A DNA stretch of 64,000 bases. Source: an uncultured Sutterella sp. Lineage in GTDB: Bacteria; Pseudomonadota; Gammaproteobacteria; Burkholderiales; Burkholderiaceae_F. Position numbers and translations under genes: made by a program. The DNA is taken from positions 2,589 through 66,588 of the forward strand of contig CAJLHF010000003.1 in the NCBI GenBank assembly GCA_905206365.1. The letters run 5' to 3'. Each line of letters begins with the position of its first letter. Positions within the stretch are counted from its first letter, which is position 1. Positions 93-20,801 of the stretch are shown here, in pieces. The notes beneath the pieces were generated by a model. It did not search any database. It was given only the letters and a program-made list of their open reading frames with translations, and was not told where the DNA came from.

Positions 93-112
93 GGACCGAA
101 GTTGTTCGGTCC
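93..112. promoter_or_regulatory. Inverted repeat GGACCGAA-GTTG-TTCGGTCC ~60 bp upstream of the Bug-family gene; candidate operator or leader hairpin
   Basis: Perfect 8-bp arms with a 4-bp spacer, seen directly in the sequence; position relative to the start codon fits a regulator binding site. Confidence 0.3.
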
Positions 113-168
113 GAACTTTATACTCCGCTGGCTTACGTATTTTGTCTTATGAGTGAGGAGTTGATTTG

Positions 169-1149: not shown

Positions 1150-1282
1150 TCGAGAACCGATCTGACGTTTGTTAACGTTTTTCCGCCCGAGCGACGCCCG
1201 CCGATCTTTCCGTCGGGCGTCGCTTGTCGTCGGGGCGTCGTATGATTCCGTCCTCTTCTTGAAACTCCTACAAGGATTCACC

Positions 1283-2134: not shown

Positions 2135-2141
2135 GTCAAAC

Positions 2142-3506
2142 ATGTCCGACTTGACCGTCGAGGAACTCCGTCGGGATTTCTCCGTCTTCGATGCCGCGCG
2201 CGAGCGGGGTGAAAGCGTCTTCCTGCGTACGCCCGAGGAGGACCTCACGTACACGGAAGTCGCCCGCCTTGTCGCGGACCGGATCGCCTCGTTCGAGCGC
2301 CCCGCGCCCGGACGTCCCCATGTGCTCGTTGCGCGCAACGACCTCGCGTCGATCGTCGAAATCCTTGCGTGTCTCGAACTTGAGGTTCCTCTGGTGCTCC
2401 TGCACCCGGGATTGACCGAGCTCGAGCAAAAGGCCCTGCGCGAAGAAATCGCCGCAAAGCGCGACCCCTTGCCCGAAGGGGCTGCGGTCGTCGTCTTCAC
2501 GTCGGGAACGACGGGACGCGCCAAGCCCGCCGTCCTTACGCGTCTGGCGCTCGCCGAGAGCGCCCGATCGTCGGATGCGAACATCGGACTCGCTCCGGGC
2601 GACGTATGGCTTCTTTCGATTTCGCCCGCGCGCATCGGGGGTTTTTCGATTCTCACGCGTTCTCTGCGGGCGCGTTCGGCCGTCGCGCTCGGCGGACACT
2701 TTTCGCCCGAAGGGTTTCTCTCCGAGGTCGAATCGATGGAGGTGACGCTTGCCTCGATCGTTCCGACGATGCTCGTGCAGATCCTCAAGACCTTCCCGGA
2801 ACGAAAGGCTCCTGCGACGTTGCGCGCGCTCCTTCTCGGAGGGGCGTCCGCAAGCGACGCGTGGCTTGCTCGGGCGCGTGCCGCGGCCTGGCCCGTCATC
2901 GCCACCTACGGCATGACGGAAACGGCAAGCAACGTGACGACGACCCCGTACGCCGAACGCTATTCGGGCGTGGTCGGAAGCGGTCGCGTCAACAAGTTCG
3001 CGGAAGTGCGGGTGGAAAACGGGCACATTCTCGTGCGCGGTCCCATGCGCATGACGGGGTACTGGGGCGAGCCTCCGCTTGTCCCCGAAGCCTGGCACGA
3101 TACGGGCGACATCGGGTACTTCGACGAGGCGGGGTATCTGCACGTCGAAGCGCGTCGCTCCGACCTCATTCTCTCGGGCGGCAACAACGTCTATCCTCTC
3201 GAAGTCGAGGCGGCGCTCGAAAGCCTCCCGGGCATCCGCGAGGCGCTCGTGACGGGCCTTCCCGACGACGTGTGGGGCGCGGTCGTGACGGCACTGCTCG
3301 TTCCCGAAAAGGGGCCGCTTCCGCCCGAAGTGATCGTCGAGGGGCTCTCGGGGCGGCTTGCCGCCTACAAGTCCCCGCGCCGCATCGCCTGGGTCGAGGC
3401 GCTCCCAGTCAATCCGGGCGGGAAACTTCGCCGCCGACCCGACGTCTTGGAGGGGCTCAGGCTCGAAACCCTCCACTATCGCAAACGTCGCCGAGATCAA
3501 GAATGA
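2142..3506 (+). CDS. menE: AMP-binding acyl-CoA ligase, probably o-succinylbenzoate--CoA ligase
   Basis: 454 aa; AMP-binding motif VFTSGTTGRAKPAVLT; starts 8 nt after the menB stop (operon context). Confidence 0.7.
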   Translation: MSDLTVEELRRDFSVFDAARERGESVFLRTPEEDLTYTEVARLVADRIASFERPAPGRPHVLVARNDLASIVEILACLELEVPLVLLHPGLTELEQKALREEIAAKRDPLPEGAAVVVFTSGTTGRAKPAVLTRLALAESARSSDANIGLAPGDVWLLSISPARIGGFSILTRSLRARSAVALGGHFSPEGFLSEVESMEVTLASIVPTMLVQILKTFPERKAPATLRALLLGGASASDAWLARARAAAWPVIATYGMTETASNVTTTPYAERYSGVVGSGRVNKFAEVRVENGHILVRGPMRMTGYWGEPPLVPEAWHDTGDIGYFDEAGYLHVEARRSDLILSGGNNVYPLEVEAALESLPGIREALVTGLPDDVWGAVVTALLVPEKGPLPPEVIVEGLSGRLAAYKSPRRIAWVEALPVNPGGKLRRRPDVLEGLRLETLHYRKRRRDQE

Positions 3507-3584
3507 CACGGTTCGCGGGGCGTCCACGGTCCGAAGCATGCGAAGTCCGAAAAGCCTCAAGACAACGAATCGAATACCAGAAAC

Positions 3585-3637
3585 GAAAGGGCGCGAAAGC
3601 CTCCGAGGCCTTCGCGCCCTTTTTTTCGGTCGCGTCC
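3585..3637 (+). terminator. Rho-independent terminator downstream of menE, convergent with nth
   Basis: GC-rich imperfect hairpin (AAGGGCGCGAAAGCCTC / GAGGCCTTCGCGCCCTT) followed by a T7 run. Confidence 0.5.
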
Positions 3638-3671
3638 GCTGTCGCGGTTGAACCGCACTTCGGTCCGCGCT

Positions 3672-4340
3672 TCAGTTCCCGCTCTTCGGGGAAAAGTCTG
3701 CGAGCCGCGCCTTTTTTTCGGGGGCGTTGCAGAAGTCGATGACGGGACAACGTTCGCACTCGGGCGAGCGTGCTTTGCAACAGTAGCGCCCGTGCAAAAG
3801 GAGGTAGTGGTGCGCTTCCTTGAGGTAGGCCTTCGGCACGACCTTGAGGAGCTTTTCTTCCACTTCGTCGGGCGTTTTTCCTCGGGCGAAGCCCGTACGG
3901 TTCGAGACGCGGAAAATGTGCGTGTCGACCGCAATCGTCGGATGCCCGAAGGCGACGTTGAGAACGACGTTCGCCGTCTTGCGCCCGACTCCGGGGAGGG
4001 CGACGAGTTTGTCGAAGTCTTCGGGCACCTCGCCGCCGTACTCGTCGCGAAGAATTTCGGAGAGCTTCACGACGTTTTTAGCTTTGTTGCGGTAGAGCCC
4101 GATCGTCTGAATGAAGGGGGTCAGCCCCTCGACCCCGAGGGCCGCGATTGCGTCGGGAGTGTTCGCTACGGGAAAGAGTTTCGCCGTGGCGAGGTTCACG
4201 CCCTTGTCGGTTGCCTGGGCGGAGAGCACGACCGCAACGAGCAATTCGAAGGGCGTCGTGTAGTTGAGCTCCGACTTCGGGTTCGGATGGGCGGCGGCAA
4301 GCGCCGCCATGAAGGCTTCGCGATCGGCTTTGCGGACCAT
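3672..4340 (-). CDS. nth: Endonuclease III (DNA glycosylase/AP lyase)
   Basis: 222 aa; HhH-GPD motif LVALPGVGRKTANVVL and C-terminal 4Fe-4S cysteine cluster (CxxxxxxC..C..C). Confidence 0.9.
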   Translation of the reverse strand: MVRKADREAFMAALAAAHPNPKSELNYTTPFELLVAVVLSAQATDKGVNLATAKLFPVANTPDAIAALGVEGLTPFIQTIGLYRNKAKNVVKLSEILRDEYGGEVPEDFDKLVALPGVGRKTANVVLNVAFGHPTIAVDTHIFRVSNRTGFARGKTPDEVEEKLLKVVPKAYLKEAHHYLLLHGRYCCKARSPECERCPVIDFCNAPEKKARLADFSPKSGN

Positions 4341-4349
4341 GGCGACTCC

Positions 4350-4967
4350 TTATTTCGAGGCGCGCACGCGCGCCATGATGTCGGCGATGAGCGCGGAGGG
4401 GGCGCCCCCCTGGGTGCCCGCCGCATGACGGCGCGCTTCGAGGCGGGACTTTTCTTCGGCCGCACGGCGCACGCCCCGCGCCCAGGCTTCTTCGTAGTGT
4501 TCGCGCGCCCGGTCGGCGTCTTCGTCCGTCCACTCGGTCCCGGTTTCAACGTAGTCGATGCAGTCCATCGGGCAGGCGGGCGCACAAAGCGCACAGCCCG
4601 TGCAACGCGACTCGATCACGGCATGGAGGCGCTTGGGCGCACCCGCAATCGAATCGGTCGGGCAGACTTTCACGCACCAGCCGCAGCCGATGCATTCGGC
4701 CGCGCGGATGCGGGCCGTGGCAAAGGGAACTTCATGACCGTACTCGGGGTCGAGATCGATCACGGGCGCCCCCGTTACGCGGGAGAGCTTCGCAATCCCG
4801 CGTGCGCCCCCGGGAGCGCAACGGTTGATGGGTGCGAGTCCCTCGGCAATCGCCTCGGCGTAGGCTGCGCAACCGTCGAAGCCGCACTGACGACATTGGG
4901 TTTGGGGAAGCGCACGGTCAACGGCTTCGGCCGAAGCGCGGTTGGGGTTGGAGTTGAAGTGCGTCAT
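4350..4967 (-). CDS. RnfB/RsxB-like 4Fe-4S ferredoxin (soluble form, no N-terminal TM segment)
   Basis: 205 aa; N-terminal CxxCxxxGC motif plus two CxxCxxCxxxCP ferredoxin motifs; lies immediately upstream of nth as in rsx-nth operons. Confidence 0.75.
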   Translation of the reverse strand: MTHFNSNPNRASAEAVDRALPQTQCRQCGFDGCAAYAEAIAEGLAPINRCAPGGARGIAKLSRVTGAPVIDLDPEYGHEVPFATARIRAAECIGCGWCVKVCPTDSIAGAPKRLHAVIESRCTGCALCAPACPMDCIDYVETGTEWTDEDADRAREHYEEAWARGVRRAAEEKSRLEARRHAAGTQGGAPSALIADIMARVRASK

Positions 4968-4976
4968 TTTCGACGA

Positions 4977-5720
4977 TTACCAGAAATTTTCCGCCACGAG
5001 TTGTCCCGGCTTTCCGAAGCGGGGCGAGACGATGCCGCGTTCCTTGAAAACCGCGCGCGTGGCCGTGATGAAGTCGGGGTTGCCGCAAAGAAGAACGCGC
5101 GAGGTTTCGGGCGTAATGTTCTTCCCGACGTGCGCTTCGAGTTCTCCCGATTCGAGAAGCGCGGGAATGCGACCCGAGAGGTCGCCGCGGCGACCGTCTT
5201 CTTCTTCGCGGGTGGTGGAGACGACGAGCGTGAATTCGCCCGGGAACGCCGTATCGACGAGTTCGCGGGCGACGGCTGCGTCTTCGAAATTGCGCACGCT
5301 CAGAACGAGTACGACGTCCTTGCGGGTCTCCCAGAGGGACTTCGAGCGGAGCATCGAGAGAAAAGGCGAAAGGCCCGAGCCCGTCGCAAAGAGCCAGAGA
5401 GTCTCGCCTCCGGGGATGCGACCGGGAAGGAGGTTCCCTTCGGCAACGCCCTCAAGAAGGGCCGTCTCGCCCGGCTCCAGATCTGTGAGGCGGGGCGAAA
5501 GGGCGCCGCCTTCGACGCGCGTCACGAGAAAACGAAGAACGTTTTCTTCCGGAGCGGATGCAACGGAATAAGCGCGCATGAGGGGATCGGCACCTTCGAC
5601 GGGAAGGCCGATGCGGGCGAACTGGCCCGCTTCGAAGGACCAGCCTTCGGGGCGCGTGAATTCGAGCACGAACAGGTTGGGAGCGGCCCGGCGTTTCGAC
5701 GTAAGCGTGATGATCTGCAT
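4977..5720 (-). CDS. fpr: Ferredoxin--NADP(+) reductase (Fpr-type FAD/NAD-binding oxidoreductase)
   Basis: 247 aa from internal ATG (MQIITL...); RAYSVAS FAD-binding motif, GTGLSPF NAD-binding motif, ends ...VAENFW; the N-terminal 103 aa of ORF 4977..6029 is artefactual. Confidence 0.85.
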   Translation of the reverse strand: MQIITLTSKRRAAPNLFVLEFTRPEGWSFEAGQFARIGLPVEGADPLMRAYSVASAPEENVLRFLVTRVEGGALSPRLTDLEPGETALLEGVAEGNLLPGRIPGGETLWLFATGSGLSPFLSMLRSKSLWETRKDVVLVLSVRNFEDAAVARELVDTAFPGEFTLVVSTTREEEDGRRGDLSGRIPALLESGELEAHVGKNITPETSRVLLCGNPDFITATRAVFKERGIVSPRFGKPGQLVAENFW

Positions 5721-5871
5721 GACGATTCCAAAAGTCGTGATTCGGTATCGGCGCGAAAAGTCGTTTTTTCGGAGGCGTCGAGCTCCTTGGCGACGGCGTC
5801 GCGGCGCAACCGACGGGTTCGGAAATGCTACCACGCTCGAGGGGCGCCTCCGAAGCGCCTTCGGACCTACG

Positions 5872-5908
5872 CAAAAAGAACGGCCTCCGCTGCGGGCGGA
5901 GGCCGGTC
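5872..5908 (-). terminator. Terminator hairpin downstream of fdxA (minus strand)
   Basis: GGCCTCCGC...GCGGAGGCC stem followed on the minus strand by TTCTTTTT. Confidence 0.5.
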
Positions 5909-5938
5909 GTTGCATGCTGGAAGCTCGACGCTGCGCGG

Positions 5939-6262
5939 TCAGCGCTTCAGGAAGCGGATCTTGTTCGGCACGCCGCGCCATTCGTCGGCGTCGTCCGCGT
6001 AGGGCTTGCGATGCGTGATGGAGGGCCATTCGCGTGCGAGTTCGGCGTTGAGCGCGATGAATTCACGCTGGTCCTCGGGGACGTCTTCTTCGGCATAGAT
6101 CGCGGCTTCGGGGCATTCGGGAATGCACACGGCGCAGTCGATGCATTCGTCGGGGTCGATCACGAGGAAGTTCGGACCTTCGCGGAAGCAGTCCACCGGG
6201 CAGACGTCAACGCAGTCGGTACGCTTGCAGCCGATGCAGGCTTCGCAAACAACGTGAGGCAT
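5939..6262 (-). CDS. fdxA: 7Fe ferredoxin (Azotobacter FdxA type)
   Basis: 107 aa from internal ATG ([26 protein letters not shown]...[12 protein letters not shown]); the N-terminal extension in the ORF track is non-coding. Confidence 0.85.
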
Positions 6263-6419
6263 AGTCAGAAGTCTCCGTTCGAGAGAGGGTCCGACGGGCG
6301 GGGGCGTCGTCCTTCGGGCCAGTACAAATAGGGGAAAGCGCGTCGCCCGACAGGGCGAACGCGCGAAATGGAACATTGTAAAACAAAGGTGGTCGACCGT
6401 GCGACCGCCCGATCGGGAA

Positions 6420-8126
6420 TCAGCCGCGCGTGCGGTGCCAGTACTGCATGCCGCCCGTGAGAATGTAGACGTTCTCGAAGCCGTCGCCCAGCAGGATGCG
6501 GCTTGCGGTATGCGCGCGAACGCCGCGGCGGCAGACGACGATCACGGTCTTCCCTTCGGGGATTTCGTCCGTACGGTCGCGCAGCTCGTTGAGCGGAATG
6601 TGTACGAGCGGGTAGTCGAGTCGGTCTTCGGTCAATTCGGCCGCTTCGCGCACGTCGAGAATCGTTACGTTCTCGGGCGTATTGGGGACGTTCTCGCCGA
6701 GGTAGGGGGCCTTGCCTTCCATGAGGTCGGCCAATTCCTGCGGTTCGATGAAGCGGGCGAGGTCCTGCATGATGTTTTCTCCGATGTGACCGACGACGTT
6801 GACGGGATCTTTGGGGGTGCCTGTCTGGGGAGCGTAGCAGAGGTCGAGTTGCGCGAGGTCGCGCACGGTCGCACCGAAGCGCATCGCGGTCGAGAGAACG
6901 TCGATGCGCTTGTCGGCACCGTCCCGTCCGATCGCCTGAGCGCCGAGAAGTTTCCCCTTCGTGTCGAACAGAATCTTGAGAAGAAGCGACTGCGACCCCG
7001 GGTACCACGCGACGTGGCTCGCCGTTTCGATCGTGGCGCGGTAGAAGTCCTTGCGCGGTTGGAGACCTTCGTTCAAGAGGGTCTGCTCGTTTTTGCCGGT
7101 CGATGCCCACAGGAGCCCGAAAAGCGACACGGCGTTCGTGCCGAACCCGCCGGGCAACGGCGCGGGTTCGAGCCCCGCAATGGCGTCCGCCGCTTCGCGC
7201 GCTTCCTTGACGGCGGTGCCCGCCAACATCATCGGGCGCTCTTTCCCCGTCACGGGATCGGTTGACGTGGCGACGTCCCCGACCGCATAGATCGCGGGGT
7301 CGCTCGTGCGCATCAAACCGTCCGTGAGGATCGTGTCGCGGGGACCGAGCGCAAGACCCGCTTCGCGCGCAAGAGACGAACGGGGCGCCACGCCCGCGGC
7401 GCTCACGAGGTAGTCGACGCAAAGCGTCTCGCCCGTCGAGAGCGTGAGATCGAGCGCTCCGTCGGGACGCTTTTCCGCCTTCGCGACCGACGTTTCCATG
7501 TGCCAGACAAAGCGCGGTTCGCTCCCCGTCGCCTCGCGACGGAAGAAGTCGGAGAGCGTCGGGTCGTTGCGCCCCATGATCGTACGACCGTACTCGAAAA
7601 GGTGTACGGTGCCGCCTCGGCGGATGATGTTTTCTGCGGTTTCAAGACCCACGGCACCTCCGCCGACGATCCCGACCGTAAGGTCGGGCTTCGCGTCGAC
7701 TGCGGCGCGCAACCGGTCGGCGTCTTCGGGACGCCAGAGCGGAAACGCGTTTTCCTTGAATCCTTCGACGGGAAGCAGACGGGGTTCGGCTCCGGTCGCA
7801 AGCACGAGCACGTCGTAGGGTTCGACGAAGACATCGTTCGTTTCGAGGTTTCGGACCGTCACGCACTTTTTCGCGCGGTCGATCGAGAGCACTTCGTGAC
7901 GCTCGCGCACGTCGACGCCCTGCGTGCGCCGCAGCGCTGCGGCGCTCGTTGCAAAGAGGGACGTGCGGGCGACTTCGCCGCCCACGTAGTAGGGAAGGGC
8001 ACAGTTCGCAAAGGAAATGCGCTCTCCGCGCTCGAAGAGCACGACCTCAGCCGAGGCCTTGAGGCGCTTCAAGCGCGTGGCGGTGCTGACGCCGGCGGCC
8101 ACGCCGCCCACGATCACGATTCGCAT
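6420..8126 (-). CDS. FAD-dependent pyridine nucleotide-disulfide oxidoreductase (CoA-disulfide reductase/NADH oxidase family) fused to a C-terminal rhodanese domain
   Basis: 568 aa from internal ATG ([16 protein letters not shown]...[10 protein letters not shown] redox cysteine); C-terminal rhodanese active-site loop VCRRGVRA; upstream 62 codons of ORF 6420..8312 are not coding. Confidence 0.8.
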
Positions 8127-8256
8127 GGGTTCCTCCGGGTGAAATACGAATTCGTCGGTTGTGAGGCATTGTACGGGGCGACCTTCGGAAAGGGCGCCGT
8201 GAAAACAGCCCATCCATGCCCGTTTGCTGGTAGGCAGAACGGGCGATAATGCGCTT

Positions 8257-9378
8257 ATGACAACGAAAGGAACGTTCCCGCCCATCTTTGCAAACGATAC
8301 GACGCGACGCATTGTTCACGTCGACATGGACGCGTTTTACGCGTCGGTCGAGCAACGCGACCGACCCGAGCTGCGCGCTCGTCCGATCGCCGTGGGGCAC
8401 GAGGACGGACGCGGGGTTGTCGCCACCGCGAGCTATGAAGCGAGGCGCTTCGGCGTTCGAAGCGCGATGCCGAGCCGCCGTGCGCGGGAGCTCTGTCCCG
8501 AACTGATTTTCGTTCCGTCGCGCATTGCCTATTACCGCGAAGTCTCCGCGCAGATTCACGACATTTTCCATCGCTACACGGACGTGGTCGAACCTTTGTC
8601 GCTCGACGAAGCGTTTCTCGACGTGACGGGAAACAAGTTGGGTCTGGAGGTCGGCACCGAGGTCGCGCGGCGCATCAAAGAGGACATCCGCCGCGAACTC
8701 AATCTCATCGCAAGCGCGGGCGTTTCCTACAACAAATTTCTCGCGAAGATCGCGTCCGATTTCCGTAAGCCCGACGGCCTCTGCACGATCCACCCGTCGC
8801 GCGCGATCGCCTTCATCGATCGGTTGCCCGTCGAAGCGCTTTGGGGCGTGGGACCCGCCACGGCGCGACGCTTTCACGATATGGGGATCACCACGGCTCC
8901 TCAGGTGCGGGCGCTCCCGCTCTCGGTTCTCACGGACGTTTTCGGACAGGCGGGCGTCATGTTTTACAAGTTCGTGCGCGGCATCGACGATCGTCCGGTT
9001 TTGGCCGAGCGCGTCCGAAAGAGCGTCGGGTGCGAAGAGACGTTCGAAACCGACATCCGCGCGCCCGAAGCGCTTCGAACGGAGCTTTCGTCCGTGGCCG
9101 AAGAGCTCGCGCGCCGCATGCGAAAGGCCGCGTTCGGCGGTCGTACGTTGACGCTCAAAGTACGCTTCTCGGACTTCACGACGATTACCCGCAGCTCGAC
9201 CCGACCGGGTGCCTGGCCCGCCGATCCGGAGGGGCTCTCGGCCGGAGGCGCCGAACTCCTCGCAGGCGTTGCGATTCCGCCCGGGGGCGTGCGCCTTTTG
9301 GGACTCTCGGTGAGCTCGCCCGTGTCGGGCGTTCTTGAACGCAACGTCGCTTTGCCGGAGCAGGGGACGCTCTTGTGA
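8257..9378 (+). CDS. dinB: DNA polymerase IV (Y-family translesion polymerase)
   Basis: HVDMDAFYASVEQRD catalytic motif, SIDEAFLDVT, little-finger domain; start chosen at the second in-frame ATG (the ORF track starts at 8224). Confidence 0.85.
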   Translation: MTTKGTFPPIFANDTTRRIVHVDMDAFYASVEQRDRPELRARPIAVGHEDGRGVVATASYEARRFGVRSAMPSRRARELCPELIFVPSRIAYYREVSAQIHDIFHRYTDVVEPLSLDEAFLDVTGNKLGLEVGTEVARRIKEDIRRELNLIASAGVSYNKFLAKIASDFRKPDGLCTIHPSRAIAFIDRLPVEALWGVGPATARRFHDMGITTAPQVRALPLSVLTDVFGQAGVMFYKFVRGIDDRPVLAERVRKSVGCEETFETDIRAPEALRTELSSVAEELARRMRKAAFGGRTLTLKVRFSDFTTITRSSTRPGAWPADPEGLSAGGAELLAGVAIPPGGVRLLGLSVSSPVSGVLERNVALPEQGTLL

Positions 9379-15446: not shown

Positions 15447-15557
15447 TTCGACAGGTCGTCACTCCGGGGAGCTTCGCCGATTCGTGCGGTCCGAAGACGA
15501 CTTCCCTCACGGCGATAGAATGGATGAAGTCTGTCGGATGCTGTAAGGAGGACGGCC

Positions 15558-15809
15558 GTGGGGCTACGTTTTCAACGACGAGTTCGGATTTTCAAGGGGG
15601 TATATCTGAACCTTTCGAAAACGGGCGTAAGCTTCTCGCTTCGGGGACGAGGCGGCGGCATTACGGTTGGCAAGAGAGGACCGCGCGCGAGCGTGGGAAT
15701 TCCCGGGACGGGCCTGTCCTACCAAACGAAGCTCGGCTCCGGGGCTGGTGTGGTCGGGATTGTGGTTGCCGTCATTGCGGCGGTCGTGATCCTCGCTCAG
15801 TTCCTCTGA
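15558..15809 (+). CDS. Small DUF4236-like protein with a C-terminal transmembrane anchor
   Basis: 83 aa; Gly/Arg-rich repeat-like core (YLNLSKTGVSFSLRGRGGGITVGKRGPRASVGIPGTGLSY) and hydrophobic tail GVVGIVVAVIAAVVILAQFL; the alternative-frame ORF 15524..15856 looks non-coding. Confidence 0.55.
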   Translation: MGLRFQRRVRIFKGVYLNLSKTGVSFSLRGRGGGITVGKRGPRASVGIPGTGLSYQTKLGSGAGVVGIVVAVIAAVVILAQFL

Positions 15810-15863
15810 GGCCGGTCGCACTGCCCGCGGGCTCTTGCAAGTCCCCCAAGGATTGAAATCTCA

Positions 15864-15896
15864 AAGACCGCTTTCCGACGGGAAGGCGGTCTTTTT
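15864..15896 (+). terminator. Candidate terminator after the DUF4236-like gene
   Basis: GACCGCTTTCC-gacg-GGAAGGCGGTC hairpin (one mismatch) followed by TTTTT. Confidence 0.4.
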
Positions 15897-16015
15897 CCGA
15901 CTCCGTGGACGTCTCCGGAAGGGCGGCGGTACAGGCGGAGCCCGGCCGCAGAGGGGCTTGCGAGGGATGTCATGCTCGCAGGTGACCTGACACGCGGGGG
16001 TACTTCTCATGGAGA

Positions 16016-16066
16016 ACAAGGTGGAGGGCGTTGAGCTTGAACTCATGAGTGAACCGGTAGCGGGGC
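16016..16066 (+). repeat. 51-bp direct repeat, copy 1 (left boundary of the LysR-flavoprotein segment)
   Basis: ACAAGGTGGAGGGCGTTGAGCTTGAACTCATGAGTGAACCGGTAGCGGGG; differs at 4 of 51 positions from copy 2 at 18866..18916. Confidence 0.7.
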
Positions 16067-16132
16067 ATGGCCATGGAAGAACTCCTTGAAAGAGGCTGTG
16101 TCGAGCTTGAAATTCGGATGGCCGCCGACACC

Positions 16133-17116
16133 TCAACTTTGACCCTTATCTCCAACCTTCCAAAACAGTCCGTTGTGTCTTTGCTCAAACGGCAGTCCCA
16201 CGGTTCGATAACGGGACAGGGCAGCCTGACGTTCCCGTTCGACAAACCAATTCATGAAGCAGTCAAGTTCGGGATCGTCTGCCGAATTTTGTCTTACCGT
16301 GAGCGTCACTCGAAACGGTTCCCGACTCCATCCGTTCAGAACCGGCACGACTTCCCCTGACGCCAAATCATCCCGAATGCTCGCCGTCGGCAGGTCGAGC
16401 GCAACGCCCAAGCCCACACGCAGAGCGCTTTGAATCGTCAGAAAATCTCCCGACAGCATATGCGCCGCCTTGAAGGGGCGACGCTCCAGGCCGCGTACGA
16501 GGCAATGCGATTCAGGATAGTTCCTTGCTGTTCTCATCAGCAACGTATGCCGGGACAGATCCTCCGGTCTTTCGGGCATGCCGTGCCGTTCTACATACGC
16601 TTTCGATGCGACCGGCAAAACGCCGAGACAATGAATGAAGCGGTTGCAGAGATTCGGATCCTCTGGCATGTAAAGAAGATAGGCGACATCCACACGGTTC
16701 CTCAGCAAATCCAGGTGATCCACTTCGGTCACCACCTCGATGTCAATTTTCGGTGCGATCTGCTTGTATTCGGCAAGCATCGCCAAAAGCTGTTCCCGCG
16801 GATAGCCGGCAACCACCCCGAAACGAATCAGGTGTCCGTGATCGTTTCGGCATCGGGTCAACTTGGACCACAGCTCATTGTGCTGATCCAAAAAAGCTTT
16901 GATGCTTGGAATGTGTTCTTCGCCGTAGGTCGTCAATCGCATGGGCCTCGCTGATCGATCAAAGAAACGTGCGTTGAGCCGTTCCTCCATGGCCGAGATC
17001 AGACGGCTCACCATGGCGACATCCATGTCCAAAGCCACAGCCGCATCCCGCATGGATGCACACCGCGCCACTTCCACAATGGCCTTCCAGGCCGCGATGT
17101 TGTTTTCTATCCTCAT
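16133..17116 (-). CDS. LysR-family transcriptional regulator
   Basis: 327 aa; N-terminal wHTH (MRDAAVALDMDVAMVSRLISAMEERLNARFFDR) and LysR substrate-binding domain; divergent from the flavoprotein gene. Confidence 0.9.
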   Translation of the reverse strand: MRIENNIAAWKAIVEVARCASMRDAAVALDMDVAMVSRLISAMEERLNARFFDRSARPMRLTTYGEEHIPSIKAFLDQHNELWSKLTRCRNDHGHLIRFGVVAGYPREQLLAMLAEYKQIAPKIDIEVVTEVDHLDLLRNRVDVAYLLYMPEDPNLCNRFIHCLGVLPVASKAYVERHGMPERPEDLSRHTLLMRTARNYPESHCLVRGLERRPFKAAHMLSGDFLTIQSALRVGLGVALDLPTASIRDDLASGEVVPVLNGWSREPFRVTLTVRQNSADDPELDCFMNWFVERERQAALSRYRTVGLPFEQRHNGLFWKVGDKGQS

Positions 17117-17129
17117 GCGACAGCTTTTG

Positions 17130-17147
17130 TTGTTGATTTATCAACAA
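17130..17147. promoter_or_regulatory. Perfect palindrome TTGTTGAT-TT-ATCAACAA in the LysR/flavoprotein divergent promoter region; candidate LysR-type operator
   Basis: 8-2-8 inverted repeat 14 bp upstream of the lysR start codon, in the 109-bp divergent intergenic region. Confidence 0.5.
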
Positions 17148-17225
17148 TGATTGTAGATCCACTCTTAACAGGGGTCAGCATCCATCCTAAACTGAGTTTA
17201 CTTCGACCAAAGGAGGACCTTACCC

Positions 17226-18725
17226 ATGACCATCAATCTCAACCGCCGCACCCTGCTTGGTTCCGGCGCAGCCGCACTGATCGCCTCACCGCTCGCAGTC
17301 CAGGCCAAAGAAAGCAAGAGCTGGGATCGGACCGTTGACATCCTCATCGTGGGTTCCGGTTTTGCCGGGCTCAGCGCCGCCATTGAAGCCAAGAGGGCCG
17401 GACGTACGCCCGTCATCATCGAGCAGATGAGCTTCACCGGCGGTAACTCACGCATCACCGGCGGCGGTATCGCCGTTCCCGGCTCGCCCATGCAGAAGGA
17501 AAAAGGCATTGAGGACAGCCCGGAACTGATGCTCGCCGACATGCTCAAGGCCGGCAACAATCTCAACTTCCCCGAACTGGCCCGGACCGTCGCCTTCGGT
17601 GCGCGAGACGCTTACGACTGGTTGGTCAACGACATCGGCGTCAAGTTCACACGTCTGATCTACCACGGCGGTCACAGCGTGATGCGCGGTTGCGGCGCCG
17701 AGCTTCTGGATGCGCACGTGACCAACTTCATGCCGAGGCTTGAAGTCAAGGCGCGTGAGCTTGGCGTGTCCATCGAAACGCGAACCAAACTCACATCGCT
17801 TATTACCGATGATGCGGGACGCGTCATCGGCGCCGAAGTGCGCAAGAACTTCGTCTTCGGCAAACCGGAATCCGGCACGCTCGAACGCGTCCGTACGAAG
17901 GGCGGTGTCATTCTTGCAAGCGGCGGCTTTGCCGCCAATCCGAAGATGCGCATGCTATTCGATCCCCGGCTTGATGCCTCCATTGAAACGACCAATCACG
18001 TCGGCGCAACGGGCGACGCGACGGCGTGCGCGCAGATGATCGGTGCCGGCGTGACGCAGATGGACTGGATTCAATGTCTTCCGATGACGAGCCCCGACGA
18101 ACACGGCTTCGGTATTGCCGTTCACTATGTGGAGTACACCGCCGGCTTCGGGCTTGCAGTCGACCCGGTCACGGGCAAGCGCTTCATGAACGAAACCGCC
18201 AACCGCAAGGTTCGCGCCGACGCCATTTTGGCGCTCAAACACCCGGCATTGTGCATCTGTACGCTCGCCAATGCCAAAAAGCATACGCCGGCACTGCGTC
18301 TGCAGAAGGCGATGGAAAACGGTTCCGTCAAGTCCTACGACACGATTGAAGAACTTGCCAAGGCCTACAACATGCCTCTTGAAGCCTTCCGCGAACAACT
18401 CAAAACCTGGAACGAATGCATCCGTAGCCGGAAGGATCCGGAATTCGGCGCCAAGATTTTTGAGGATGCCGAAGTCAACGAAACCGGTCCCTTCCTCGTA
18501 TCCCGACTTTGGCCCCGCGCGCACCATACCATGGGCGGTTTGATCATCAATACGAAGGCCCAGGTACTCAATGCCTTCGGAGAACCCATCCCCGGACTTT
18601 GGGCTGCTGGCGAAGCTACCGGCGGCGTGCACGGCGAAGTTCGTCTCGGTACCGTCGCCATCGCGGACTGCATCGTCTTCGGCCGTATCGCCGGACAAAG
18701 TGCGTCAGCCTCCGCGATCGTCTGA
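17226..18725 (+). CDS. Tat-exported FAD-binding dehydrogenase of the fumarate reductase/succinate dehydrogenase flavoprotein family (flavocytochrome-c-like soluble reductase)
   Basis: 499 aa; twin-arginine signal NRRTLLGSGAAALIASPLAVQA; FAD dinucleotide-binding motif DILIVGSGFAGLSAAIEA; C-terminal HTMGGL catalytic region. Confidence 0.85.
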   Translation: MTINLNRRTLLGSGAAALIASPLAVQAKESKSWDRTVDILIVGSGFAGLSAAIEAKRAGRTPVIIEQMSFTGGNSRITGGGIAVPGSPMQKEKGIEDSPELMLADMLKAGNNLNFPELARTVAFGARDAYDWLVNDIGVKFTRLIYHGGHSVMRGCGAELLDAHVTNFMPRLEVKARELGVSIETRTKLTSLITDDAGRVIGAEVRKNFVFGKPESGTLERVRTKGGVILASGGFAANPKMRMLFDPRLDASIETTNHVGATGDATACAQMIGAGVTQMDWIQCLPMTSPDEHGFGIAVHYVEYTAGFGLAVDPVTGKRFMNETANRKVRADAILALKHPALCICTLANAKKHTPALRLQKAMENGSVKSYDTIEELAKAYNMPLEAFREQLKTWNECIRSRKDPEFGAKIFEDAEVNETGPFLVSRLWPRAHHTMGGLIINTKAQVLNAFGEPIPGLWAAGEATGGVHGEVRLGTVAIADCIVFGRIAGQSASASAIV

Positions 18726-18804
18726 CGGTTTCCGGCATCATCGCAACTCGGCGATCGCAGACGCTTGCGGCGCCGAGACCGCATCAACATTGCCTGAACT
18801 CTCC

Positions 18805-18845
18805 AAACCCCATGCGGACTACCGCATGGGGTTCAACATTTTGAA
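18805..18845 (+). terminator. Hairpin downstream of the flavoprotein gene
   Basis: CCCCATGCGG-acta-CCGCATGGGG perfect 10-bp stem, followed by TTCAACATTTT (weak T tract). Confidence 0.45.
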
Positions 18846-18865
18846 CAGGTCGACCGAAAACAACC

Positions 18866-18916
18866 ACAAGGCGGAGGGCGTTGAGCTTGAACTCATGAGT
18901 GAGCCGGCGGCGGGGT
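18866..18916 (+). repeat. 51-bp direct repeat, copy 2 (right boundary of the LysR-flavoprotein segment)
   Basis: ACAAGGCGGAGGGCGTTGAGCTTGAACTCATGAGTGAGCCGGCGGCGGGG; 47/51 identical to copy 1. Confidence 0.7.
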
Positions 18917-18920
18917 GCGA

Positions 18921-18972
18921 AAAAATGGCAAAAGAAAACGGCCGGAAGCGCGTGAAGCGTATCCGGCCGTTT
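18921..18972 (-). terminator. Rho-independent terminator of the dicarboxylate symporter gene (minus strand)
   Basis: AACGGCCGGA...TCCGGCCGTT perfect 10-bp stem; on the minus strand it is followed by TTTTCTTTTGCCATTTTTT. Confidence 0.5.
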
Positions 18973-19036: not shown

Positions 19037-20269
19037 TCAGGCTTCGCCTTCGACGTAGGGTTCCTTGCCGAGGTCGCCTTCGAGGTTCGTGACGATAACC
19101 GCGGAGGCCACGTCGCCCACCACGTTGATCGAGGTGCGGATCATGTCGAGGATACGGTCGATGCCGGCAATGAGCGCCACGGCTTCAAGCGGGATGCCGA
19201 CCTGCGTGAAGACGATCGTCGTCATGATGAGACCCGCACCGGGGACGCCTGCGGTGCCGACGGCGGCGAGAACGCCCATCAGAACGATCGTCATCTGGTC
19301 GACCATCGTGAGGTCAAGCCCGTAGACTTCCGCGGCGAAGATCGAACACACACCCATGTAGACGGCCGTGCCGTTCATGTTGATGGTGTTGCCGAGCGGA
19401 ATCGAGAAGGAGGCGATGCTCTTGGTCGCACCGAGACGGCGGGCGGCGGCGAGATTCGCCGGAAGAGCCGCAGCCGACGAGCAGGTCGTGAAGGCGATGA
19501 GCCAGGGCTCGAAAATGCCGCGCAGGAACTTCATCATCGGAATGCGCGCCAGGATGTAGACGAGCGGGATGAGAACGAGGAAGACGAGGGTCGCCGTTGC
19601 GAGGAAGGAGGACAGAATGAGCTGGAAGAGGGGCAGCAACACCTGAAGGCCGTGACGCGAAACCGTGTAGGCCATCAAACCGAAGACGCCGATCGGAGCG
19701 TAGTGCATGACCATGTTCGTCACGCGCACCATCGTGTCGCCCACGAGTTCGAAGAACTTGAGCACGGGCTTGCCGCGTTCACCGAGGCCGGCAAGCGCGA
19801 AGCCGAAGATCACCGCAAAGAAGATGATCTGAAGCATGTTGCCCTTGGCAAAGGCTTCCATCGGGTTGATCGGCACGATGTCAAGGAGCGTATCGACGAG
19901 CGCCGGAGGCGTCACCTGCTTGGCCTGGAGGCCTTCGGTCGAGAGGTTGATCCCGAGGCCGGGCTGAATGACGGAAGCGAAAACGAGACCGATCGCCACG
20001 GAGACGGCCGTCGTGATCGCATAGACGCAGAGGACCTTCGTCGCGACGCGCCCGAGCTTGGACGTGTCGGAGATGCCGGCCGCACCGGCGATGATGGTGG
20101 CGATCACCAACGGAACGACCACCATGCGGATCAAACGAATAAAGAGCGTGCCGAGCGGCTGCAGGTATGTCTGCGCAAAGCTTGAATCGACCACGGCACC
20201 GACGGCGATACCGAGTGCAAGGCCGATCATCATCTGCCATGCAAGGCTGATTTTCATTTTGGAGGCCAT
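19037..20269 (-). CDS. Dicarboxylate/amino acid:cation symporter (DAACS family; DctA/GltP-like C4-dicarboxylate transporter)
   Basis: 410 aa from internal ATG with RBS GGTGGAGATA; multiple TM segments and the family-typical re-entrant-loop serine-rich motifs (SSAAALPA...); the first 44 codons of ORF 19037..20401 are not coding. Confidence 0.85.
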   Translation of the reverse strand: MASKMKISLAWQMMIGLALGIAVGAVVDSSFAQTYLQPLGTLFIRLIRMVVVPLVIATIIAGAAGISDTSKLGRVATKVLCVYAITTAVSVAIGLVFASVIQPGLGINLSTEGLQAKQVTPPALVDTLLDIVPINPMEAFAKGNMLQIIFFAVIFGFALAGLGERGKPVLKFFELVGDTMVRVTNMVMHYAPIGVFGLMAYTVSRHGLQVLLPLFQLILSSFLATATLVFLVLIPLVYILARIPMMKFLRGIFEPWLIAFTTCSSAAALPANLAAARRLGATKSIASFSIPLGNTINMNGTAVYMGVCSIFAAEVYGLDLTMVDQMTIVLMGVLAAVGTAGVPGAGLIMTTIVFTQVGIPLEAVALIAGIDRILDMIRTSINVVGDVASAVIVTNLEGDLGKEPYVEGEA

Positions 20270-20801
20270 TATCTCCACCCCTAGCGATTGTTGGAATTGT
20301 GTTGGCGTTCGGGAGCAACTGCGCGACCGAACCGAGACGGAAAACCGTGCCGTTGAGAACGATTCTAGGGAGCGGCGCACTTTGTAATAATGCGTAAACA
20401 ATTAAGTGTAAATACGTAATCCCTATACAAATCGCTAAAAACACTGTGGTTTATTTGGATTTTTATAAAATTTCGGCCTCAAAAACGAAATCCCGACGGT
20501 TTGCGCCAACGCAAAAGACTGCGAAAAAACGCAAATTGTGCACATGAGGGAATTACTCCTTAGTGGGTAGGTTTCGCGTAAAGACGAGAATTTCTTTTGA
20601 GAAACATCCATTTTTTGTAAGATGTAGCTCCGTTCGGAAGGGTTTTGACGCGCTCGAAAACGTGAGGATCGGGTTCTTTTTTTTCGTGCGGCTCCGCATA
20701 ATCCGCTAACCTTAAGCGTTTTCCACAAGCTATCCTCCGACTCCCCGCTCTCGAAGGTGCTTGTTTCCGTTTCCGCTTCCTTGCAAAAGGTTCCACCGAC
20801 C

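What the first reader, a model, noticed from the sequence alone, without database searches (positions are those of the whole stretch)
16016..18916. A ~2.9 kb lower-GC segment carrying a LysR regulator and a Tat-exported flavoprotein reductase, bounded by 51-bp direct repeats
Two 51-bp direct repeats (16016..16066 and 18866..18916, 47/51 identical) bracket a segment whose GC content and third-codon-position usage differ from the surrounding ~65% GC, strongly GC3-biased genes. Codons such as ggt, att, aaa and gaa are common inside it and rare outside. The segment holds a divergently arranged LysR regulator and a twin-arginine-signal FAD protein of the fumarate reductase / flavocytochrome-c family. 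A DctA-like dicarboxylate symporter with its own terminator sits immediately outside the right repeat. Compositional distinctness plus flanking direct repeats is the signature of a horizontally acquired cassette. This one looks like a modular 'regulator + periplasmic soluble reductase' unit of the kind multiplied in Sutterella-like gut anaerobes, and the electron acceptor of such paralogues is usually unknown. No integrase or transposase is present, so the mobilisation mechanism, if any, is unclear.
Basis: partly seen in the sequence, partly recalled or inferred. Interest (0 to 1): 0.75.

Follow-up and report, generated by a model that had tools for sequence, protein, structure and literature searches.

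The report
Reductase cassette flanked by IS3 relics
The two "direct repeats" are leftover fragments of an IS3-family insertion sequence, and they bracket a horizontally acquired regulator-plus-periplasmic-reductase gene pair that some strains of this human-gut Sutterellaceae-like bacterium carry and others precisely lack; it is a clean but ordinary example of accessory-gene gain and loss.

Summary
A 50-bp direct repeat (16016-16065 and 18866-18915, 46/50) brackets a lower-GC segment holding a LysR regulator and a Tat-signal FAD_binding_2 flavoprotein. The repeats are not att sites, target duplications or REP elements. They are the 5' end of orfA of an IS3-family insertion sequence. The left copy lies inside a 223-bp frameshifted relic (15890-16112); the right copy is an isolated 50-bp fragment. 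An intact IS of this lineage was found in another contig.

Metagenome contigs of the same species show both alleles. Occupied and empty sites differ by exactly 2850 bp, which is one repeat plus the intervening DNA. Related lineages keep Dxs-IspA-Zip-DctA-(BOF)-META-PolA with no cassette and no relic. The flavoprotein is 91% identical to a protein in a 50%-GC genome, whereas PolA has no non-conspecific relative above 67%. This supports horizontal acquisition. Within the species, whether empty alleles are ancestral or secondary losses is unresolved.

The enzyme belongs to the flavocytochrome-c family (TIGR01813) but lacks the fumarate and urocanate specificity residues, so its substrate is unknown. 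Verdict: a new member of a known kind, of modest interest.

The parts
15558..15809 (+). DUF4236 gene, the left neighbour. It is lineage-specific and absent from this position in all outgroup loci.
   Evidence: Pfam PF14020, 66 bits. No outgroup locus has it downstream of dctA.
15863..15894 (+). Terminator hairpin of DUF4236; it abuts the truncated inner end of IS relic A.
   Evidence: Fold -23.8 kcal/mol, z = -4.6; also found by the terminator scan.
15890..16112 (-). IS3-family relic A: the 5' UTR and the first ~63 codons of orfA (IS positions ~186-411), frameshifted. It lacks the terminal inverted repeat, the rest of orfA and all of orfB.
   Evidence: blastn to the intact IS in L011: 84% identity over 222 columns with 7 gaps, E = 1.5e-62. 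The same extent is seen against the independent copies L106 and L105. The 34-aa ORF MAMPRYRFTHEFKLNALHLV... hits PF01527 weakly.
16016..16065 (-). Direct repeat copy A, equal to IS positions 233-282 (orfA codons ~4-20), inside relic A.
   Evidence: The diagnostic bases at repeat positions 7, 38, 43 and 44 read TATA or TACA across 16 occupied alleles.
16113..16149 (.). 37 bp of unassigned origin between relic A and the native end of LysR. It supplies a 6-codon tail (GDKGQS) to LysR. The left breakpoint of the cassette lies at about 16150.
   Evidence: LysR ends ...FWKVGDKGQS* here against ...FWQV* in the 91% cassette. Nucleotide homology to L022 starts at 16150.
16133..17116 (-). LysR-type transcriptional regulator (327 aa), divergent from the reductase gene.
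   Evidence: PF00126 and PF03466. GC3 = 0.616, the lowest in the window.
17117..17225 (.). Divergent promoter/operator region. It holds the dyad GTTG-N9-CAAC (17129-17145, containing a T-N11-A LysR box) and ATTGTA (17150-17155), which is the -10 TACAAT of the LysR-side promoter. A promoter-like site for the reductase lies at 17165-17193.
   Evidence: These columns are invariant in five orthologous cassettes of 74-91% protein identity. Promoter-like matches on both strands.
17226..18725 (+). Soluble FAD flavoprotein reductase (499 aa) with a twin-arginine signal (residues 1-27) and no haem or FMN domain. Flavocytochrome-c / fumarate-reductase-like family.
   Evidence: PF00890, 224 bits. TIGR01813, 446 bits against a cutoff of 285. 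Best solved relatives are UrdA 6t85 (2e-81) and Fcc3 1d4c (6e-70). Leader read.
18806..18844 (+). Terminator hairpin and T-rich tail of the reductase gene.
   Evidence: Fold -23.1 kcal/mol, z = -4.55.
18866..18915 (-). Direct repeat copy B: an isolated 50-bp IS3 orfA fragment (IS positions 233-282), truncated on both sides.
   Evidence: 92% to the intact IS, E = 9e-15. Its alleles CGCG, TGCG and TACG include both alleles found at the single copy in empty sites.
18922..18972 (-). Intrinsic terminator of dctA (hairpin 18936-18972 plus a T tail), immediately outside copy B.
   Evidence: Fold -28.4 kcal/mol, z = -5.4.
19037..20269 (-). DctA/GltP-type sodium:dicarboxylate symporter (410 aa). It is a conserved core gene and not part of the cassette.
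   Evidence: PF00375, 405 bits. The identical protein is present in both occupied and empty alleles. Orthologues of 77-86% sit in conserved synteny in outgroups.

Best explanation
The 50-bp repeats are the overlapping remains of two truncated copies of the 5' end of orfA from an IS3-family insertion sequence. They bracket a self-contained accessory module. The module consists of a LysR regulator, a conserved divergent operator/promoter, and a Tat-exported soluble FAD reductase of the flavocytochrome-c family.

The module entered this roughly 62%-GC Sutterellaceae-like lineage horizontally, from the pool of reductase modules carried by lower-GC relatives. It landed in the dctA-BOF gap, which has also taken up DUF4236 and a 6.1-kb block.

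Today the species is polymorphic. Occupied and empty alleles differ by exactly one repeat plus the 2.8 kb between the repeats. The alleles therefore interconvert by recombination within the 50-bp IS3 homology, which has a 30-bp perfect core.

My preferred history is inferred and not shown. Incoming DNA carried an IS3 fragment (positions ~186-282) next to LysR and recombined with a resident IS3 relic (positions 233-411), giving a Campbell-type or homology-anchored integration. That would explain why the repeat is exactly the 233-282 overlap. The resulting direct repeats then allow precise loss by slippage or recombination, which regenerates the relic-only site.

Functionally (also inferred), LysR senses a small molecule and switches on a periplasmic reductase for an alpha,beta-unsaturated carboxylate other than fumarate or urocanate. 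This would give the strains that carry it one extra respiratory electron acceptor.
For: Repeat identity. The peptide encoded across copy A hits only PF01527, at the profile's N-terminus. The single genome-collection hit, L011, carries an intact element whose OrfA starts MAMPRRQFTHEFKLNALHLV, followed by an OrfB with an rve domain. OrfB scores 286.7 bits on NF033516 IS3 transposase (cutoff 160), and OrfA scores 45 bits on PF01527. Window 15890-16106 matches IS positions 192-411 (E = 1.5e-62), and 18866-18915 matches positions 233-282. Two more IS copies confirm this.

Accessory status. L012-L016 and L025 encode the identical DctA but lack the cassette. The intergenic length is 377 bp against 3227 bp, a difference of 2850 bp, which equals the repeat spacing. 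The empty site has the left flank of A, one 50-mer and the right flank of B.

Derived state. At least five outgroup lineages keep Dxs-IspA-(Zip)-DctA-(BOF)-META-PolA without cassette, relic or DUF4236.

HGT. Flavoprotein orthologues of 91, 81, 80 and 74% lie in 45-57% GC DNA, some inside reductase arrays. PolA drops from 99% to 67%. Cassette GC3 (0.62-0.72) lies between the orthologues (0.38-0.63) and the host (0.77).

IS association. A decayed copy of the same IS sits next to FAD_binding_2 reductases in L105. An 80% orthologous cassette abuts an IS5-like fragment.

Module autonomy. GTTG-N9-CAAC and the -10 hexamer are invariant in five orthologous cassettes.

Enzyme. TIGR01813 membership. The carboxylate-binding and catalytic residues Arg327, His433 and Arg473 are kept (their roles are given in PMC7921117). 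Signal-peptide flavin reductases paired with regulators act as inducible respiratory reductases in S. wadsworthensis and others (bioRxiv 10.1101/2022.12.26.521950).
Against: The integration step itself is not observed. The same final structure could arise from two full IS copies that decayed in place, with an equal number of truncation events.

The direction within the species is unresolved. Empty alleles carry copy-B-type bases at all four diagnostic positions, including the C/T polymorphism at position 7 that also segregates in copy B. A simple crossover in the core, in either direction, predicts a T there. No SNP is fixed between the allele classes, and empty alleles sit on several left-flank haplotypes.

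The A and B copies differ at 3-4 of 50 sites, and each is also about 92% identical to the intact IS. They are therefore not a fresh duplication.

No intact IS3 copy was shown in this species, because only 64 kb plus the fetched loci were available. The contig with the intact IS belongs to a MAG assigned to Prevotellaceae and is probably mis-binned.

The donor is unknown. The best orthologue is only 78.5% identical at the DNA level, so the transfer is not recent or the true donor is unsampled.

The substrate, the regulation and the respiratory role are inferred from family membership only.
Confidence: 0.72

Rival explanations
1. Decayed composite transposon. The LysR-reductase pair arrived flanked by two complete, directly oriented IS3 copies and transposed as a unit into the dctA-DUF4236 gap. 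Both IS copies were later eroded by deletions, to 223 bp and 50 bp. Empty alleles are all secondary deletions between the two remnants.
For: Both remnants come from the same IS lineage and have the same orientation. This IS lineage and an IS5-like element lie next to reductase modules elsewhere. Empty alleles carry copy-B alleles throughout the 50-mer, as expected from slippage-type deletion. Occupied alleles occur on both deep right-flank haplogroups. The number of truncations needed (four) equals that of the preferred model.
Against: No terminal inverted repeat, no orfB fragment and no target-site duplication survive at either end. Copy B would need two independent deletions that happen to leave exactly the stretch shared with A. 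A and B differ at 6-8% of sites, whereas IS copies in an active composite transposon are normally near-identical. Species-level diversity is only about 0.5%.
Confidence: 0.22
2. Site-specific integration. The repeats are attL and attR of an integrative element or gene cassette, inserted and excised by a tyrosine or serine recombinase encoded elsewhere.
For: Direct repeats exactly bound a segment that is present or absent between strains.
Against: The repeat is an internal piece of an IS3 orfA and extends as IS homology for another 170 bp on one side only. There is no integrase in or beside the segment, no tRNA or tmRNA target and no Rfam family. The repeat occurs at only one other place among 185,579 genomes, and there it is inside an intact IS.
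Confidence: 0.03
3. No horizontal transfer. The cassette is ancestral to the family, was inherited vertically and was lost repeatedly in the other lineages. Its lower GC would reflect gene-specific constraints.
For: The flavoprotein's GC3 (0.72) is within the host range. Diversity inside the cassette is not negligible (pi = 0.0026).
Against: All outgroup lineages lack it at this site, and they also lack the IS relic and DUF4236. Orthologues occupy unrelated genomic contexts. The flavoprotein reaches 91% identity where PolA reaches at most 67%, Dxs at most 78% and DctA at most 86%. LysR GC3 is the lowest of 43 genes.
Confidence: 0.04
4. Generic intergenic repeat. The 50-mer is a REP/MITE-like element scattered through the genome, and its position on both sides of the cassette is coincidental.
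For: None beyond its intergenic location.
Against: Two copies in 64 kb, none in shuffles. One hit in the species-representative genome collection. The sequence is IS3 coding sequence. The empty allele is exactly one unit shorter.
Confidence: 0.01

Closest known systems
IS3-family insertion sequences (OrfA HTH_Tnp_1 plus OrfB DDE/rve, programmed -1 frameshift), and IS remnants acting as portable homology for insertion and deletion of accessory DNA
   Same: The repeats are homologous to the 5' UTR and N-terminal orfA of an intact IS3-family element. The flanked DNA is strain-variable, and the two alleles differ by one repeat unit, as expected for recombination between directly repeated IS sequences.
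   Different: Neither window copy is an IS. There are no inverted repeats, no orfB and no intact orfA, and the reading frame is shifted. The homology left is only 50 bp with a 30-bp perfect core, close to the minimum for RecA-type recombination (from general knowledge). No target-site duplication is visible.
[quoted passage not shown]
   Same: A signal-peptide FAD_binding_2 reductase sits directly beside a cytosolic HTH regulator. Orthologues are embedded in arrays of paralogous reductases with LysR and two-component regulators. Gene content varies between strains. That paper invokes both HGT and duplication, and shows that presence or absence of irdA predicts a strain's phenotype.
   Different: This copy is a singleton placed among housekeeping genes and not in a reductase array. 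The organism is an unnamed ~62%-GC relative and not S. wadsworthensis itself (not verified). No substrate or induction data exist for this enzyme.
Urocanate reductase UrdA (PDB 6t85) and Shewanella flavocytochrome c3 fumarate reductase Fcc3 (PDB 1d4c, 1qjd)
   Same: The same FAD and clamp-domain fold family (E = 2e-81 and 6e-70). The catalytic Arg (Arg327 = Fcc3 R402 / UrdA R411) and the carboxylate ligands (His433 = H504/H520; Arg473 = R545/R560) are conserved (PMC7921117).
   Different: There is no haem domain (Fcc3) and no FMN-binding domain (UrdA). The hinge residue is Leu285, not His365 (fumarate) or Tyr373 (urocanate). Ala306 replaces Fcc3 Arg381, and Tyr304 replaces UrdA Asp388. Export is by a Tat leader.
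Campbell-type / homology-facilitated integration of foreign DNA
   Same: The occupied allele has the topology produced by a single crossover between a circular molecule and the chromosome within a short shared sequence: the insert is flanked by direct repeats of that sequence. The reverse event restores the empty site exactly.
   Different: No circular intermediate has been shown. The 2871-2873-bp Logan contigs that carry the cassette are what a k=31 de Bruijn assembler yields for a 37-nt exact repeat (and my arithmetic). They are not evidence of circles.

Membership tests
IS3-family insertion sequence (source of the repeats) | OrfA with HTH_Tnp_1 and OrfB with a DDE/rve integrase core, in overlapping -1 frames | tested here: met
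   In the intact relative L011: orfA 224-529 (PF01527, 45.1 bits) and orfB 526-1449 (rve, 82.9 bits; NF033516 IS3 transposase, 286.7 bits against a cutoff of 160).
IS3-family insertion sequence (source of the repeats) | The window repeats are homologous to that element | tested here: met
   Window 15890-16106 against IS 192-411: 84% identity, E = 1.5e-62. Window 18866-18915 against IS 233-282: 92% identity, E = 9e-15. Confirmed with L105 and L106.
IS3-family insertion sequence (are the window copies themselves functional IS?) | Terminal inverted repeats and an intact transposase | tested here: not met
   No orfB homology in the window by tblastn. The orfA remnant is frameshifted (7 gaps). Homology to three IS copies stops about 25-30 bp short of the IS end. 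Both copies are relics.
Composite transposon | Two complete IS copies with inverted repeats flanking the cargo, and a target-site duplication outside them | tested here: not met
   Only 223-bp and 50-bp fragments remain, with no inverted repeats and no duplication at the outer junctions. A decayed former composite cannot be excluded.
Integrase-dependent genomic island / integrative element | A tyrosine or serine recombinase gene, and att repeats that usually derive from a tRNA/tmRNA 3' end | tested here: not met
   No recombinase among the ORFs from 14 to 21 kb. The only tRNA call is at 41121. The repeats are IS coding sequence.
REP/MITE-like dispersed repeat | Many copies at unrelated intergenic sites | tested here: not met
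   Two copies in 64 kb and one match in 185,579 representative genomes. The complete genome of this species was not available, so the test is incomplete.
Flavocytochrome c / soluble fumarate-reductase-like flavoproteins (TIGR01813, PF00890) | Scores above the curated cutoffs, with catalytic Arg and carboxylate-binding His/Arg present | tested here: met
   TIGR01813 446.3 bits (cutoff 285.45) and PF00890 224 bits. Arg327, His433 and Arg473 align to Fcc3 R402, H504 and R545.
Fumarate reductase (Fcc3-type) specificity | His365 contacting the substrate, and the Arg381/Glu378 proton relay | tested here: not met
   Leu285 aligns to His365 and Ala306 to Arg381; Glu303 is kept (alignment). The role of the His is given in PMC7921117.
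Urocanate reductase (UrdA) specificity | Tyr373 in the hinge; Asp388 (or Asn/Gln) binding the imidazole; an N-terminal FMN domain | tested here: not met
   Leu285 aligns to Tyr373 and Tyr304 to Asp388 (residue roles from PMC7921117). No FMN_bind domain. Alignment-based only; no structure was modelled.
LysR-type transcriptional regulator with a divergent target gene | An N-terminal HTH_1 and a LysR substrate-binding domain; a T-N11-A dyad in the divergent intergenic region | tested here: met
   PF00126 49.4 bits and PF03466 75.7 bits. GTTG-N9-CAAC at 17129-17145 is invariant in five orthologous cassettes. Binding and the inducer are not testable here.
Tat-exported protein | A twin-arginine motif (S/T-R-R-x-F-L-K-like), then a hydrophobic stretch and an AxA cleavage site | tested here: met
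   The sequence read directly is MTINLNRRTLLGSGAAALIASPLAVQA|KE. No dedicated predictor was run, and Pfam TAT_signal did not score.

The most novel reading that the evidence does not exclude
Truncated IS3 fragments attached to LysR-reductase modules might act as general, portable homology handles in Sutterellaceae. Any genome holding a relic of the same IS could then capture, and later precisely shed, a self-regulated respiratory reductase module by short-homology recombination, with no active transposase. This would be a systematic route by which the large and strain-variable reductase arsenals of these gut bacteria are assembled. The module here would confer respiration on a diet- or host-derived enoate not yet characterised.
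Probability: 0.12. Interest if true: 0.55.

Novelty: new member of a known kind. Interest (0 to 1): 0.3.

Why it matters
Gut Sutterellaceae carry tens of secreted flavin reductases whose substrates are mostly unknown and whose gene content differs between strains. This locus is a well-resolved natural example of how one such module comes and goes. Both alleles, the junctions, the ancestral synteny and the low-GC relatives are all in hand. That gives a natural isogenic-like contrast (strains with and without the cassette) for finding the enzyme's electron acceptor. It also offers a concrete, testable case of short IS-relic homology mediating precise gain or loss. Nothing here challenges current understanding of IS-mediated genome plasticity or of this enzyme family.

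Tried and rejected
1. tRNA or att origin of the repeat. ARAGORN finds only one distant call, and Rfam finds nothing in the window.
2. REP-like element: rejected by copy number.
3. Target-site duplication. 50 bp is far too long, and the repeat is internal IS sequence.
4. Circular excised form suggested by the 2871-2873-bp Logan contigs that carry the cassette proteins. The length equals repeat-A position 8 to repeat-B position 30, exactly what k=31 unitigs give when a 37-nt exact repeat bounds a segment. It is an assembly artefact and not evidence.
5. Inferring gain or loss within the species from the four diagnostic repeat positions, flank haplotype clustering, junction-proximal SNPs and nucleotide diversity. 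These were inconclusive. The allele classes are intermixed, and sampling was biased because loci were retrieved by exact protein identity.
6. Looking for the IS terminal inverted repeat between relic A and LysR. It is not recognisable.
7. Looking for shared non-coding ends between the window cassette and orthologous cassettes, including the ~100-bp inverted repeats that flank the L107 cassette. No homology beyond the two genes and their promoter.
8. Naming the organism. The only named PolA relative is Duodenibacillus sp. at 54%. The genome-collection scan did not return the source genome.
9. PADLOC and Pfam on the neighbouring 6.1-kb variable block. No defence system was found.
10. Structure prediction was not run, because sequence-level family membership and residue mapping were sufficient.

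Full report
OBSERVATION. The window holds a direct repeat at 16016-16065 and 18866-18915. The copies are 46/50 identical with a 30-bp perfect core. The core occurs exactly twice in the 64-kb window and never in 100 dinucleotide-preserving shuffles. Between the copies lie a LysR regulator (16133-17116, minus; PF00126 and PF03466) and, divergently, a 499-aa FAD_binding_2 flavoprotein (17226-18725; PF00890, 224 bits). The flavoprotein's N-terminus reads MTINLNRRTLLGSGAAALIASPLAVQA|KE, a twin-arginine leader. An SDF/DctA-type symporter (19037-20269, minus) lies just outside the right repeat and has its own strong terminator hairpin (-28.4 kcal/mol, z = -5.4).

COMPOSITION. The segment is 57.4% GC against 62.3% for the window. 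GC3 is 0.616 for LysR, the lowest of 43 genes (z = -3.7), but 0.720 for the flavoprotein (z = -1.3). Pooled GC3 is 0.679 against 0.770 (p = 6e-9). The codon-level claim is overstated. ATT and GAA are only marginally enriched, GGT and AAA are not, and GAA is the majority Glu codon outside the segment.

WHAT THE REPEAT IS. Gene callers on related contigs annotate a 34-aa minus-strand ORF over the left repeat, MAMPRYRFTHEFKLNALHLV.... Its only Pfam hit is HTH_Tnp_1, aligned at the N-terminus of the profile (E = 0.058). I treated that as a lead only. A scan of 185,579 species-representative genomes for the 24-nt core gave one match, L011. There the sequence is the start of a 101-aa OrfA (MAMPRRQFTHEFKLNALHLVLHEK...), followed in the -1 frame by a 307-aa OrfB. 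OrfA is PF01527 (45 bits). OrfB has rve domains and scores 286.7 bits on NCBIfam IS3 transposase against a cutoff of 160. Candidate terminal inverted repeats lie at about 165-184 and 1465-1484.

Against this IS, window 15890-16106 aligns to IS positions 192-411 at 84% identity with seven gap columns (E = 1.5e-62). Window 18866-18915 aligns to positions 233-282 at 92%. Two further IS copies (L106, and the decayed L105) give the same picture. They extend relic A to 16112 and show that the outermost ~25-30 bp of the IS, including the inverted repeat, are missing. No orfB remnant exists in the window. So the left 'repeat' is part of a 223-bp frameshifted IS3 relic, and the right 'repeat' is a 50-bp internal fragment truncated on both sides. 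The two window copies and the intact IS are mutually about 92% identical. The repeats are therefore not a fresh duplication. The tRNA/att, Rfam, REP and target-duplication readings are all excluded.

PRESENCE/ABSENCE WITHIN THE SPECIES. The exact flavoprotein occurs on many human-gut metagenome contigs, always in the same context. A look-up with the exact 410-aa DctA returned contigs with the cassette (L017-L020) and contigs without it (L012-L016; also L025). In the empty allele the DctA-DUF4236 gap is 377 bp, against 3227 bp in the window. The 2850-bp difference equals the repeat spacing. The empty site reads: left flank of copy A (IS 283-411), one 50-mer, right flank of copy B (the dctA terminator). 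The polymorphism is thus exactly 'one repeat plus everything between the repeats', the outcome of recombination within the 50-bp homology in either direction.

ANCESTRAL STATE AND HORIZONTAL ORIGIN. A metagenome scan with DctA returned 80 loci. At least five related lineages (GC 0.51-0.65; DctA 77-82%, PolA 58-67%, Dxs 70-78% identical) conserve Dxs-IspA-(Zip)-DctA-(BOF)-META-PolA. None has the cassette, an IS3 relic or DUF4236 downstream of dctA. In this species the dctA-BOF gap has therefore accumulated several lineage-specific inserts.

The flavoprotein has close orthologues at 91, 81, 80, 79, 76 and 74% identity, then a drop to about 53%. The 91% and 80% copies keep the same divergent LysR partner and spacing. 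They lie inside arrays of paralogous FAD_binding_2 reductases, LysR regulators, two-component systems and a cytochrome c3, in DNA of 49.6% and 46.2% GC. The 74% copy lies in 45% GC DNA. DNA homology to the window covers only LysR through the flavoprotein (16150-18703, 78.5%). By contrast, the best non-conspecific PolA among 5.8 billion proteins is 67% identical, and the only named relative is Duodenibacillus sp., a Sutterellaceae, at 54%. A cassette protein at 91% where housekeeping proteins reach 67-86% argues for horizontal acquisition. So do the different genomic contexts and a GC3 that lies between the low-GC orthologues (0.38-0.63) and the host (0.77). Partial amelioration, or an unsampled donor, would explain the intermediate composition.

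JUNCTIONS. LysR here ends ...HNGLFWKVGDKGQS*, whereas the 91% orthologue ends ...HNGLFWQV*. The left breakpoint of the acquired DNA therefore sits at the native stop codon (about 16150). It is followed by 37 bp of unassigned sequence and then relic A. On the right, the flavoprotein terminator (18806-18844) is followed by about 20 bp and then copy B.

MECHANISM, AND WHAT IS SHOWN VERSUS INFERRED. Four things are shown. The repeats are IS3 relics. The cassette is accessory. The alleles differ by one repeat unit. The outgroups lack the cassette. The origin is inferred.

My preferred model is that a resident relic (IS 233-411, as in the empty allele) recombined with incoming DNA that carried a differently truncated fragment of the same IS lineage (about 186-282) next to LysR. 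The shared stretch is then exactly 233-282, which explains the odd 50-bp fragment. The reverse reaction, or replication slippage, regenerates the relic-only site. The rival is a composite transposon with two full IS copies that decayed in place. It needs the same number of truncations and cannot be excluded. It fits less well with the 6-8% divergence between A and B and with the absence of any inverted repeat, orfB remnant or target duplication.

DIRECTION WITHIN THE SPECIES IS UNRESOLVED. Copy A reads TATA or TACA at the four diagnostic positions. Copy B reads CGCG, TGCG or TACG. Empty sites read CGCG (4 of the 5 tabulated) or TGCG (1 of 5), meaning copy-B-type throughout. A plain crossover in the 30-bp core predicts T at position 7 in empty sites, whichever way the reaction ran. 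Slippage-type deletions from parents polymorphic at copy B would explain the pattern and hint at recurrent loss. However, flank haplotypes are intermixed, no SNP is fixed between the classes, and sampling was biased because loci were retrieved by exact protein match. Diversity inside the cassette (pi = 0.0026) is about half that of the flanks, with the same caveat. The cassette is not brand new in the species.

IS-REDUCTASE ASSOCIATION ELSEWHERE. A decayed copy of the same IS lineage (OrfB 86%) lies beside two FAD_binding_2 reductases, a porin and a TetR regulator in L105. An 80% orthologous cassette (L107, L108) abuts an IS5-like DDE_Tnp_1 fragment and is bracketed by ~100-bp inverted repeats. 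Those ends are not homologous to the window's ends. More distant relatives of the IS are annotated as IS3 transposases of Burkholderia, Paraburkholderia and Trinickia, consistent with a Burkholderiales-type host. The MAG that holds L011 is classified in Prevotellaceae. Its 4.8-kb contig is probably mis-binned.

THE MODULE AND ITS LIKELY FUNCTION. In the 109-bp divergent region, a dyad GTTG-N9-CAAC (17129-17145, containing T-N11-A) and ATTGTA (17150-17155, the -10 TACAAT of the LysR-side promoter) are invariant across five orthologous cassettes. The regulator, operator and reductase therefore travel as one unit.

The enzyme passes TIGR01813 'flavocytochrome c' (446 bits; cutoff 285) but has no haem or FMN domain. 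Its best solved relatives are urocanate reductase UrdA (6t85, 2e-81) and the Shewanella Fcc3 fumarate reductases (about 6e-70). Counting along those alignments, the catalytic Arg (Arg327 = Fcc3 R402 / UrdA R411) and the carboxylate ligands (His433, Arg473) are kept. The hinge residue is Leu285, where fumarate reductases have His365 and UrdA has Tyr373. Ala306 replaces Arg381, and Tyr304 sits where UrdA has the urocanate-binding Asp388. The residue roles are from PMC7921117.

I infer a periplasmic reductase for an alpha,beta-unsaturated carboxylate that is neither fumarate nor urocanate, induced through LysR. The inference is in line with the inducible, regulator-linked, signal-peptide flavin reductases described for S. 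wadsworthensis, E. lenta and H. filiformis (bioRxiv 10.1101/2022.12.26.521950). The adjacent DctA is a conserved core gene and not part of the cassette. Any functional link to it is speculative.

COMPARISON AND VERDICT. IS-relic-bounded accessory DNA, and strain-variable respiratory flavin reductases paired with regulators, are both well-known kinds. This locus is a clean new example, not a new kind. The 'unclear mobilisation mechanism' is largely explained by the IS3 origin of the repeats. Interest is modest (0.3). The value lies in a well-defined natural with/without contrast for de-orphaning one reductase, and in a testable case of 50-bp IS-relic homology mediating precise gain or loss.

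Noticed in passing
window 15451-15556, replaced in L001 by 2143-8331 (also in L002, L003, L005, L016): A second, independent strain polymorphism lies in the same gap. A 6.1-kb block of five genes (406, 366, 229, 473 and 417 aa; one with DUF6844, the last CsgG-like; 60% GC) replaces 106 bp between BOF and DUF4236. It occurs with and without the reductase cassette, so the two inserts assort independently. There are no PADLOC hits.
   Followed up: partly
window 15558-15809 (DUF4236), compared with outgroup loci L030-L104: The dctA-BOF/META gap looks like an insertion hotspot in this lineage. DUF4236, the IS3 relic, the reductase cassette and the 6.1-kb block are all absent from the conserved Dxs-IspA-Zip-DctA-(BOF)-META-PolA arrangement of related lineages.
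   Followed up: partly
L107 401-497 and 3533-3628 (also L108, L109): An 80%-identical LysR-flavoprotein cassette in a ~54% GC organism is bracketed by ~100-bp inverted repeats (41 nt at 93% plus 59 nt at 75% complementarity), each with a terminator-like hairpin. An IS5-like DDE_Tnp_1 fragment lies at the contig end. The contigs stop at these repeats, which suggests a multicopy element. It is not homologous to the window's cassette ends.
   Followed up: partly
Logan contigs of 2871-2873 bp carrying the cassette proteins: Cassette-sized contigs recur in several samples. Their length matches what a k=31 de Bruijn assembler yields for a segment bounded by a 37-nt exact repeat (alleles in which both copies have T at position 7). 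I read them as an assembly artefact and not as excised circles. Read-level data could check this.
   Followed up: partly
L011 (DVNY01000055.1) 1-4783: The only genome-collection contig with the intact IS belongs to a MAG named Candidatus Caccomonas pullistercoris (Prevotellaceae). It also carries a phage-type integrase (2523-3890) and an OmdA-domain protein. The contig is probably mis-binned and may be part of an integrative element.
   Followed up: no
window 41121-41212: ARAGORN calls a 92-nt tRNA-Arg(TCG), unusually long for a tRNA, inside or next to a predicted minus-strand ORF (40625-41503). It may be a false call or a tRNA with an insertion.
   Followed up: no
L028 (VOFH01002676.1), DctA 86% identical: The closest non-conspecific DctA lies in a 66% GC contig with rearranged synteny (PolA, META, META, DctA, Zip, IspA, with several gene orientations changed). 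It may be a sister lineage with an inversion at this locus.
   Followed up: no
window 20250-20750: There is a sharp GC trough (45% over 500 bp) in the dctA-Zip intergenic and promoter region, lower than anything inside the cassette. It shows that local GC dips in this genome are not specific to acquired DNA.
   Followed up: no
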